Part shown: in pieces, positions 1 through 1,118 of the stretch
Layout of the letters: each line of letters opens with the position of its first letter
How positions within the stretch are numbered: the stretch's first letter is position 1
IMG/VR virus record: IMGVR_UViG_3300044455_000042
Location: 1 to 40,535 of that record
From: a virus
Taxonomy: Duplodnaviria; Caudoviricetes
DNA: 40,535 nucleotides
Direction: 5' to 3' (one strand)
Made by a program: the position numbers and the translations under genes
The notes under the pieces: model-generated
Told to the model about the DNA's origin: nothing
Database searches by the model: none
What the model saw: the letters and a program-made list of their open reading frames with translations, nothing else

Positions 1-127
1 TAACCGTGTTAACCTTGAAAAGTGGCGGACGATGCACACCCGGCGGGTGGCAAACCGGCAGGCGGGAGGGACATCATGAGAACCCCATTTCGATGAGCTT
101 CCCACGGGGTTCCCATTTGTCCCACGG
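1..127. repeat. Terminal direct repeat, copy 1 (circular assembly overlap)
   Basis: 1-127 is identical to 40409-40535 and contains the 3' end of the integrase ORF, so the contig circularises to 40408 bp. Confidence 0.95.
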
Positions 128-240
128 ACCTCAACGAAATCAATGGGTTAGACCACGCCTTGAGAACGCCTCAACTACCTCTAAGGCGTTGATATCATTG
201 GAGGCCGTGGGACATGGGACATACCCGTGGGACGATGGAA
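83..240. mobile_element. attP-like phage attachment site
   Basis: Directly after the int stop. Arm-type repeats TCCCACGG (100-107, 120-127) and inverted CCGTGGGAC (205-213, 225-233). Two inverted IHF consensus sites WATCAANNNNTTR (138-150 plus; 182-194 minus) flank the dyad TTGAG-AACGC-CTCAA (160-174). Confidence 0.75.
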
Positions 241-249
241 ATCAGTAGC

Positions 250-318
250 ATGATCGCCAAACCACCGAGGGCTCCGTTGGCGGTAGTATCCCTCGGCCGG
301 TACAGAATGGCGGCGTGA
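250..318 (+). CDS. Possible 22-aa mini-ORF MIAKPPRAPLAVVSLGRYRMAA
   Basis: ATG 250 to TGA 318, abutting the next ATG at 319; a related interrupted copy lies at 612-727; no clear SD. Confidence 0.3.
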   Translation: MIAKPPRAPLAVVSLGRYRMAA

Positions 319-806: not shown

Positions 807-949
807 CGTTGCGCGGGACCGAGAGGGACTCAAACCCTCAGTACGCCGGTCCTTCGGGGTTAGCGCCATCCCGCCCGGCTCGCCGCTCGCAAGCGACTTA
901 TCGCGTCTGTCAGTTTAGGCGCATTCTTCCGCCATCGGCCCGCGCAACG
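807..949 (-). ncRNA. tRNA-like structured RNA (not a canonical tRNA)
   Basis: Minus strand: 7-bp acceptor-like stem GGGCCGA/TCGGTCC extended by CGTTGCGC/GCGCAACG; Leu-type D arm TGGCGGAA...AGACGC with an enlarged loop; T arm GAGGG-TTTGAGT-CCCTC; two hairpins replace the anticodon arm; no CCA. Confidence 0.65.
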
Positions 950-954
950 CTGCG

Positions 955-963
955 TTTATAACA
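955..963 (-). promoter_or_regulatory. Extended -10 promoter for the tRNA-like RNA
   Basis: TG-T-TATAAA on the minus strand ending 6 nt before the first base (949) of the closing stem. Confidence 0.55.
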
Positions 964-996
964 CAGCCTGCGCGCCCCCTACGCGGAACTGCGCAC

Positions 997-1032: not shown

Positions 1033-1093
1033 CCGGACGCGGTTAGGGTAGCTCCCGAATAGCCGGTCCGTTAACCGGCCACGCCGTGTCCGG
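1033..1093 (+). ncRNA. Three-way-junction RNA, candidate antisense/leader regulator
   Basis: 10-bp stem CCGGACGCGG (1033-1042)/CCGTGTCCGG (1084-1093) encloses hairpins GGG-TAGCT-CCC and GCCGG-TCCGTTAA-CCGGC; AGGGTA and TCCGTTA are complementary to TACCCT (1094-1099) and TAACGGA (1102-1108). Confidence 0.6.
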
Positions 1094-1118
1094 TACCCTC
1101 GTAACGGAGAGGAACCCC

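What the first reader, a model, noticed from the sequence alone, without database searches (positions are those of the whole stretch)
807..963. tRNA-shaped RNA with its own promoter but no anticodon arm or CCA
Seen on minus: acceptor-like stem, Leu-type D arm with an enlarged loop, T arm with UUUGAGU loop, and two hairpins (GTCGCT-TGCG-AGCGGC; GCCGG...CCGGC enclosing CGGG/CCCG) in place of the anticodon and variable arms. The 5' leader pairs perfectly with the 3' trailer over 8 bp, and TGnTATAAA lies just upstream. Known: P1 C4 and P4 CI RNAs are RNase P-processed phage regulatory RNAs. Inference: a repurposed tRNA scaffold (regulator, RNase P substrate or decoy) rather than a decayed tRNA, since all stems are intact.
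Basis: partly seen in the sequence, partly recalled or inferred. Interest (0 to 1): 0.78.

Follow-up and report, generated by a model that had tools for sequence, protein, structure and literature searches.

The report
Phage tRNA-framed RNA with kissing core
A soil phage carries a gene for a small RNA that keeps the corner and stems of a transfer RNA but has a conserved folded core in place of the decoding arm; dozens of other phages keep the same shape through compensating mutations, and it likely works as a stable decoy or ligand for a host tRNA-handling protein, which is untested.

Summary
Confirmed, and stronger than reported. Minus-strand 949-807 is one of 43 distinct members of an RNA family found in viral, metagenome and prophage DNA, with no Rfam or ARAGORN hit. 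Members keep a leucine-type tRNA frame by compensatory change: acceptor 291 of 301 cells paired with 42 different sequences, and the tertiary 19-56 elbow pair is Watson-Crick in 39 of 43 (A-U, G-C, U-A). The anticodon and variable arms are replaced by a conserved purine-rich two-hairpin core. The acceptor helix extends 4 bp or more in 26 of 43, against 3 of 465 ordinary phage tRNAs. It is not a decayed, spliced or codon-reading tRNA, and no C4/CI-type target was found. It resembles T5 RNA1/RNA2 and T4 RNA C (tRNA-like stable RNAs, function unknown), which lack this core. Best guess (0.45): a stand-alone stable RNA that binds a host tRNA-recognising factor late in infection. No transcript evidence. 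The scan found other tRNA-framed phage RNAs on other DNA, but not this family by sequence look-up.

The parts
807..949 (-). Whole RNA gene including the extended closing helix (about 143 nt; 127 nt, 941-815, if cut at the tRNA +1 position)
   Evidence: Sequence; model R1 score 115 bits, the window being in the training set
955..963 (-). Extended -10-like element; a start 6-8 nt downstream would fall at the first base of the closing helix
   Evidence: Sequence; not called by the sigma-70 scan; no listed change at 955-963 in a related contig of run X5 (5 rows not shown); function inferred
942..949 (-). 5' strand of the helix extension (pairs with 814-807; C73 at 815 bulged)
   Evidence: extension of 4 bp or more in 26 of 43 members against 3 of 465 tRNAs
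935..941 (-). Acceptor-like stem, 5' strand
   Evidence: helix 1: 7 of 7 pairs change on both sides
903..932 (-). Leu/Ser-type D arm: 3-bp stem, A14, A15, 15-nt insert, G18 (911), A19 (910)
   Evidence: five stem variants that keep pairing
918..922 (-). D-loop half of the loop-loop pairing (GCGCC)
   Evidence: helix 4: 84% of cells paired, 4 of 5 pairs change on both sides
882..902 (-). A-rich junction (902-898) and hairpin Pa (897-882) in place of the anticodon arm; near-invariant G-C, U-G, C-G base
   Evidence: no 7-nt anticodon loop
845..879 (-). Hairpin Pb in place of the variable arm: 5-bp outer stem, purine-purine juxtaposition (A.G in 25, G.A in 15 of 43), AGGA bulge (853-850), inner stem and loop
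863..867 (-). Pb-loop half of the loop-loop pairing (GGCGC)
840..844 (-). Conserved GUA linker and U48 (pairs with A15; G15-C48 in L401)
823..839 (-). T arm; U56 (832) matches A19
   Evidence: U56 in 7 of 465 ordinary tRNAs
807..822 (-). Acceptor 3' strand (822-816), C73 (815), trailer strand of the extension (814-807); no CCA
808..977 (.). Optional cassette: RNA gene plus promoter-like element, absent as a unit in related DNA
   Evidence: Joint 807 to 978 with 18 other letters between, one contig each in runs X3 and X4

Best explanation
This is the gene of a conserved phage non-coding RNA family whose paired stems and tRNA corner are kept by compensating mutations and which has no anticodon arm; it is likely transcribed as a stable stand-alone RNA that would bind a host tRNA-recognising protein, probably as a decoy during late infection. 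Shown by comparison: the tRNA frame (acceptor, D stem, T arm, 19-56 pair; 15-48 with one double change), the replacement core, the D-loop/Pb-loop complementarity, the long closing helix, and the free acceptor sequence and discriminator. Inferred: (1) transcription from the -10-like element here, or release from the late mRNA in embedded members by RNase P and 3' trimming; (2) an L-shaped fold braced by the kissing pair, with the purine-rich junctions forming a binding surface; (3) a host partner, because no neighbouring phage gene is shared; (4) a tRNA-targeting defence nuclease or a similar tRNA-handling factor as that partner, titrated by an RNA that offers no anticodon loop to cut. Confidence that it is a selected structured RNA gene is about 0.95; the value given here is for the whole mechanism.
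For: 43 distinct members. Acceptor 291 of 301 cells paired against 41% for mismatched members, 42 different 5' strands, discriminator C15/A13/U9/G6: shape is selected, synthetase identity is not. 19-56 Watson-Crick in 39 of 43, shuffle mean 18.4, maximum 31 of 20,000; 9 changes among the three pair types on a poorly resolved tree. Tool count on 45 rows: 92% of 1310 cells paired, 29 of 34 pairs change on both sides, slid controls 33-44%. The second half of the core, searched without any tRNA motif, lay inside a tRNA frame in 19 of 19 hits. No neighbouring protein family is shared by more than 5 of 43 loci, and the two largest are portal and terminase. Members lie in both orientations to late genes (16 sense, 7 antisense; my tally), and the window's copy is an optional cassette downstream of the lysis terminator. 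Phage tRNA-Tyr blunts Septu and 'may act as a decoy or supplement' (PMC13096335, passages).
Against: No transcript or processing data. No partner identified; the decoy step is analogy only. The Septu result concerns a real tRNA that can also resupply translation, which this RNA cannot. Closing helices of 7 to 24 bp depart from the 12-bp acceptor-plus-T ruler that many tRNA-binding proteins read (ruler recalled), and U56 is rare in true tRNAs. 16 members sit in sense within or ahead of late operons, which also fits a cis role. The near-invariant core fits an aptamer or ribozyme as well as a protein site, and its invariance is partly built into my search patterns.
Confidence: 0.45

Rival explanations
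1. A cis-acting processing or stabilising signal (t-element-like): RNase P or another nuclease cuts the late mRNA at the tRNA frame, or the folded RNA shields the downstream message.
For: 16 of the 23 members next to packaging, head or neck genes are in sense (tally). In L398 the RNA sits between a complete protease gene and a complete capsid gene. Several abut the upstream stop codon within 10 nt. T-elements keep acceptor and T arm without an anticodon arm (PMC5499578, passage).
Against: 7 members are antisense to the late genes. The window's copy lies beyond the lysis terminator and two opposite-strand genes, has its own -10-like element and is optional. A cutting signal would not need the conserved core or the kissing pair.
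Confidence: 0.17
2. The core is a ligand-binding or catalytic RNA (aptamer or ribozyme) carried in a tRNA chassis that gives it stability and clean ends.
For: Near-invariant unpaired purines in three junction strands, a fixed U-G pair (43 of 44 rows) and a purine-purine swap next to the AGGA bulge, while loop sequences are free.
Against: No fixed downstream gene or expression platform. No Rfam riboswitch or ribozyme match on the element at E up to 10 beyond chance-level partial hits. The core half was never found outside the frame (19 of 19).
Confidence: 0.15
3. A structural RNA of virion assembly: the two complementary loops pair between molecules to form dimers or rings, as phi29 pRNA does (recalled).
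For: Loop-loop complementarity in 28 of 30 long-loop members; 23 of 43 lie near packaging, head or neck genes.
Against: 13 of 43 members have a normal short D loop and no kissing pair. Neighbouring terminases and portals belong to several families. The cassette is optional in related DNA.
Confidence: 0.06
4. An antisense regulator like P1 C4 or P4 CI, processed by RNase P.
For: It neighbours a weak int-alpA-like RNA (E 0.03). Bacterial RNase P cuts hairpin-like and extended-stem substrates (PMC5499578, passages).
Against: Complementary 11-, 12- and 13-mers elsewhere in the window: 7, 3, 2 against shuffle means 6.2, 1.7, 0.5. Loops are tetraloops or taken by the kissing pair. No C4 match in Rfam. 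Host targets were not searched.
Confidence: 0.06
5. A decayed tRNA-Leu gene, or a tRNA with an intron that splices to a working tRNA.
For: The ends resemble tRNA-Leu: the 3' pattern retrieves ordinary tRNAs, many of them Leu (20-nt context), and tRNA-Leu genes score 25-36 bits on the model.
Against: Compensatory change in all helices. Only 1 of 43 has any 5-bp partner for positions 27-31, so no anticodon stem can be restored by one excision. Acceptor and discriminator are unconstrained.
Confidence: 0.03

Closest known systems
Phage T5 RNA1 and RNA2 (AY543070.1, annotated 'tRNA-like stable RNA with unknown functions')
   Same: Phage-encoded, 125-144 nt, tRNA frame (RNA1 has a Leu/Ser-type D arm, T arm and closing stem) with hairpins in place of the anticodon arm; function unknown.
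   Different: They lack the conserved core motifs and score 15.8 and 13.4 bits on the model, below ordinary tRNAs in the same loci. They lie in a large tRNA cluster; here 5 of 33 loci have any tRNA in the flanks. Kissing pair and 19-56 switching are shown only for this family.
Phage T4 RNA C (species 1) and RNA D (NC_000866.4)
   Same: Stable late RNAs of unknown function (PMC9697503, PMC12685909, passages); RNA C has a T arm.
   Different: RNA C has a long rod on the D side and no core motif; 13.8 bits partial match.
Bacterial Y RNA YrlA
   Same: tRNA-mimic domain without an anticodon, also found in phages; one is cut by RNase P and gains CCA (PMC4201824, passages).
   Different: YrlA is encoded next to a Ro60 orthologue; no TROVE hit among 149 proteins scanned, 146 of them from 20 member loci; no Rfam match.
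P1/P7 C4 and P4 CI RNAs
   Same: Small structured RNAs of temperate phages, cut by RNase P.
   Different: They lack a T loop and act by antisense pairing (recalled); this family keeps a full elbow and shows no target in the window.
Plant mitochondrial t-elements
   Same: Acceptor/T-arm mimics lacking the anticodon arm.
   Different: T-elements are degenerate cis signals at mRNA ends; this family has a conserved core and occurs stand-alone and antisense.

Membership tests
Canonical tRNA (Rfam RF00005) | 7-bp acceptor, 5-bp T stem with 7-nt loop, D arm, elbow pairs | tested here: met
Canonical tRNA (Rfam RF00005) | 5-bp anticodon stem with 7-nt loop | tested here: not met
   1 of 43 has any partner for positions 27-31; 16 of 43 cap Pa directly with a GNRA tetraloop; ARAGORN and Rfam negative
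Canonical tRNA (Rfam RF00005) | Conserved synthetase identity (acceptor pairs, discriminator) | tested here: not met
   42 different acceptors; all four discriminators
T5 RNA1/RNA2 and T4 RNA C kind (tRNA-like stable phage RNAs) | tRNA frame with non-decoding insert, phage-encoded | tested here: met
T5 RNA1/RNA2 and T4 RNA C kind (tRNA-like stable phage RNAs) | Sequence or model homology to those RNAs | tested here: not met
   At most 15.8 bits, no core motif
T5 RNA1/RNA2 and T4 RNA C kind (tRNA-like stable phage RNAs) | Accumulates as a stable RNA during infection | not testable with these tools
   No RNA holder listed
C4 / CI antisense RNAs | Rfam C4 model match | tested here: not met
C4 / CI antisense RNAs | Loop sequences complementary to targets in the phage's own transcripts | tested here: not met
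   Matches at chance level in the window; other members' genomes not tested
C4 / CI antisense RNAs | Matured by RNase P | not testable with these tools
   Extended stems do not exclude bacterial RNase P
tmRNA tRNA-like domain | G3-U70 alanine identity with A73 (recalled) | tested here: not met
   G3-U70 in the window but C73; G-U at pair 3 in 3 of 43; a related contig in run X5 has C70
Y RNA YrlA | Encoded next to a Ro60/TROVE gene | tested here: not met
   0 TROVE hits in 149 proteins; the later members were scanned against PHROGs only
Intron-containing tRNA | One excision restores an anticodon arm | tested here: not met
Allo-tRNA (8/4 or 9/3 acceptor branch, PMC5389517) | 8/4 or 9/3 branch with an anticodon arm | tested here: not met
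   5-bp T stem and no anticodon arm
t-element | Fixed position at an mRNA end, acting in cis | tested here: inconclusive
   16 sense, 7 antisense beside late genes; window copy stand-alone

The most novel reading that the evidence does not exclude
A new class of phage RNA in which a true tRNA elbow is fused to a conserved catalytic or ligand-binding core: a tRNA-shaped ribozyme, aptamer or inhibitor that docks on the host's tRNA-reading machinery (ribosome, RNase P or an immune nuclease) and disables or redirects it, giving the first mechanistic handle on the decades-old tRNA-like stable RNAs of T4 and T5.
Probability: 0.25. Interest if true: 0.88.

Novelty: new variant of a known kind. Interest (0 to 1): 0.64.

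Why it matters
T4 RNA C and RNA D are still described as of unknown function, and T5 RNA1 and RNA2 are annotated so. This family offers a residue-level map drawn from covariation: which tRNA contacts are kept (elbow, D stem, T arm), which are free (acceptor identity, CCA, anticodon), and a conserved core with an optional kissing brace. That turns 'tRNA-like RNA' into testable mutants and compensatory rescues. One member is in a sequenced Bradyrhizobium strain. If it is a decoy, it would be an RNA anti-defence agent; if the core is active, a new structured-RNA class; either way it is a natural tRNA scaffold.

Tried and rejected
ARAGORN: 0 genes in the window and none on the element in the member loci scanned. 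Rfam: 0 hits at gathering score in the window; only partial chance-level hits on the element at E up to 10; none on 18 member loci or on 4 loci at E up to 10 apart from a 13-nt T-loop match to tmRNA. First pattern (3' end only) gave 102 loci, read by eye as almost all ordinary tRNAs. blastn of 5 members against 50,697 phage records and 2 against 72,556 plasmids: no match over more than 26% of the query. GTDB genomes: 1 hit with a strict pattern; 1 of 151 genomes in the genus search, the same genome (the first look scored 22 candidates a genome, so misses are possible). Sequencing runs: no RNA holder listed. Antisense targets in the window at chance level. Alanine identity rejected. Intron reading of L398 rejected: both flanking genes are complete. 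Shared neighbour gene: none. Relatives of the 1119-1355 protein: 1 weak locus without the RNA. Literature: 10 full-text searches listed no paper describing this family; most subscription papers are not covered. Supplements: Fremin 2023, 6 files searched for core motifs and two contig ids with no hit, 3 files not searched; Weinberg 2017 supplement unreadable. Either could hold this motif unnamed.

Full report
Setting. The window is a whole 40.5-kb virus record with a long-tailed phage gene set on the minus strand: terminase, protease-capsid, portal, tail and endolysin at 2654-1992, then a terminator-like hairpin at 1862-1837. Two plus-strand ORFs without family hits follow (1119-1355, 1352-1813), then the element. 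An alphaproteobacterial host is inferred from the DUF2460/BR0599 tail genes (host link recalled) and from a 75%-identical member in a Bradyrhizobium genome.

Observation. ARAGORN and Rfam see nothing. The single sequence folds only modestly better than shuffles (z -1.6 and -2.1), so homologues were needed.

Finding the family. A pattern for a Leu-type D arm with a long loop plus a distant T loop gave 86 viral loci; 68 distinct sequences were parsed, 9 with the window's middle domain and 59 without. Further patterns on other parts and a covariance model from 15 members gave 51 aligned matches, 45 distinct. I dropped two weak rows that lack the core (27.1 and 19.7 bits) and kept two low-scoring rows that have it (L204, 31.1; L364, 28.3), leaving 43. 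These form 39 clusters at 90% identity and 29 at 75%. The other 41 score 48-134 bits, training rows included; ordinary tRNA-Leu genes score 25-36 and the wider class at most 48.9, so the lower edge overlaps and membership rests on the core motif. The family is rare in isolates: one GTDB hit and none in cultured phage records.

What is selected. Acceptor: 291 of 301 cells paired, 41% when strands of different members are crossed, 42 different 5' strands (my script chose the best register, but the model alignment gives 97%). Discriminators are C15, A13, U9, G6; 2 of 43 encode CCA. The D stem has five paired variants. G18 is kept in 42 of 43. Positions 19 and 56 form a Watson-Crick pair in 39 of 43 (A-U 18, G-C 18, U-A 3; misses A-C 2, G-U 1, U-C 1), against a shuffle mean of 18.4; shuffles ignore kinship, but a rough tree needs 9 changes among the three types (bootstrap not settled). 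The 15-48 pair shows one double change. Position 19, the acceptor and the kissing loops were in none of the collection-scan patterns. Over the whole structure 92% of cells pair and 29 of 34 pairs change on both sides; slid controls give 33-44% (all 45 rows, alignment fitted to the model).

The replacement core. After the D stem come an A-rich junction, hairpin Pa (fixed G-C, U-G, C-G base; GNRA cap in 16 of 43, longer stems in most others), a short purine junction, hairpin Pb with a 5-bp outer stem, a purine pair that swaps between A.G (25) and G.A (15), an AGGA bulge, and a GUA linker. Invariance of these words is partly built into the patterns. Only 1 of 43 could form an anticodon stem. Searched without any tRNA motif, the second half of the core lay in a tRNA frame in 19 of 19 hits.

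The kissing pair. Thirty members have a long D loop; in 28 it is complementary over 4 or more Watson-Crick pairs to the interior of Pb, in 17 over 5 or more; crossed members reach 4 in 37% and 5 in 8% of 652 pairs; shuffled loops average 3.7 against 4.8 observed, maximum 4.3 of 500. The 13 short-loop members lack it, 7 of them closing Pb with a tetraloop. It is therefore an optional brace. Whether it forms within or between molecules is not known.

Ends. The helix runs on for 4 bp or more past the 7-bp acceptor in 26 of 43 (one bulge allowed) against 3 of 465 ARAGORN tRNAs from my loci. A -10-like hexamer lies 3-9 nt before the helix in 10 of 43 (shuffles 4.1; 8 of 2000 as high); the window's own TATAAA does not fit that strict pattern. 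Others are embedded in operons and would need cutting out. Bacterial RNase P handles hairpin-like substrates and extended stems better than protein-only RNase P (PMC5499578, passages), so cleavage at +1 remains possible.

Context. By my tally, 23 of 43 lie within the fetched 3-5 kb of terminase, portal, head or neck genes (16 sense, 7 antisense), 3 beside lysis genes, the rest in early or unannotated regions; I have no baseline for this enrichment. No accessory neighbour is shared. Five of 33 loci have a tRNA in the flanks. Related contigs in two runs join 807 to 978, lacking gene and promoter-like element together; a contig in a third run keeps the locus, with few changes in the RNA, one turning G3-U70 into G3-C70.

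Mechanism. Shown: a selected tRNA-shaped structure that cannot decode and carries no fixed charging identity. Inferred: stable expression, late timing, a host partner, decoy action. Both orientations, the stand-alone optional cassette and the lack of a partner gene favour action in trans on a host factor; the kept elbow says the factor, or the processing route, reads tRNA shape. Phage tRNAs counter tRNA-cutting defences (PMC13096335, passages), which supplies the analogy. I put this at 0.45; cis processing signal 0.17, aptamer or ribozyme core 0.15, assembly RNA 0.06, antisense 0.06, dead or spliced tRNA 0.03.

Comparison. Earlier notes of this scan pointed me to T4 RNA C and T5 RNA1/RNA2. Fetched and tested, they share the idea of a tRNA frame with a non-decoding insert but not the core, and score at most 15.8 bits. 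It works like that kind but is not their homologue. Sequence look-ups of two members in the scan's notes found nothing.

Papers seen. Passages only: PMC5737381, PMC5389517, PMC10690425 (six supplement files searched), PMC11662646, PMC13192938, PMC13096335, PMC7609411, PMC5499578, PMC4201824, PMC9697503, PMC12685909. Ten searches listed no description of this family; unread supplements of PMC10690425 and PMC5737381 could hold it.

Verdict. A real, uncatalogued, strongly covarying phage RNA family: a new variant of the old and unexplained kind of tRNA-like stable phage RNAs. Interest 0.64.

Noticed in passing
L103-L188 (e.g. L104, L105, L109, L110, L116, L160, L166, L151): A wider class of Leu-type tRNA frames with a hairpin in the D loop and very different middles: 59 distinct hits without this family's core, 53 with at least 6 of 7 acceptor pairs, 46 of those with G19-C56; some loci hold 2-3 copies, several lie among tRNA genes. 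Similar to earlier notes e1-10043348 and e1-6107528.
   Followed up: partly
window 1036-1107 (+): Weak int-alpA RNA match (22.3 bits, E 0.03, below gathering) ahead of ORF 1119-1355, divergent from the finding. The stretch 1030-1117 is covered far more deeply by related soil contigs than its neighbours and joins to different downstream genes.
   Followed up: partly
window 100-232: A 53-nt imperfect inverted repeat with short repeated words, well covered in related contigs; possibly an attachment site or origin. No integrase was found among the ORFs scanned.
   Followed up: no
window 250-312 and 612-715: Two direct repeats (37 nt at 84%, 31 nt at 81%) flank the 98-aa ORF 319-615, suggesting insertion by duplication.
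   Followed up: no
L196 4152-5186: In the Bradyrhizobium prophage the RNA follows a NusG-family gene and precedes an mmgR/suhB sRNA and the terminase.
   Followed up: partly
L398 2321-4577: The RNA lies between separate protease and capsid genes that are fused into one ORF in the window's phage (24562-26511).
   Followed up: yes
L209 3975-4112, L210 3981-4100, L202, L203, L225: tRNA frames whose insert begins with the same AAGUC word but lacks the rest of the core; L210 ends in CCA and passes the Rfam tRNA cut-off.
   Followed up: no
L212 789-866: Type II hammerhead ribozyme 3 kb upstream of a member.
   Followed up: no
L197 4657-4866, L223 2883-4040: KTSC-domain genes near 2 of 20 member loci; may be chance.
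   Followed up: no
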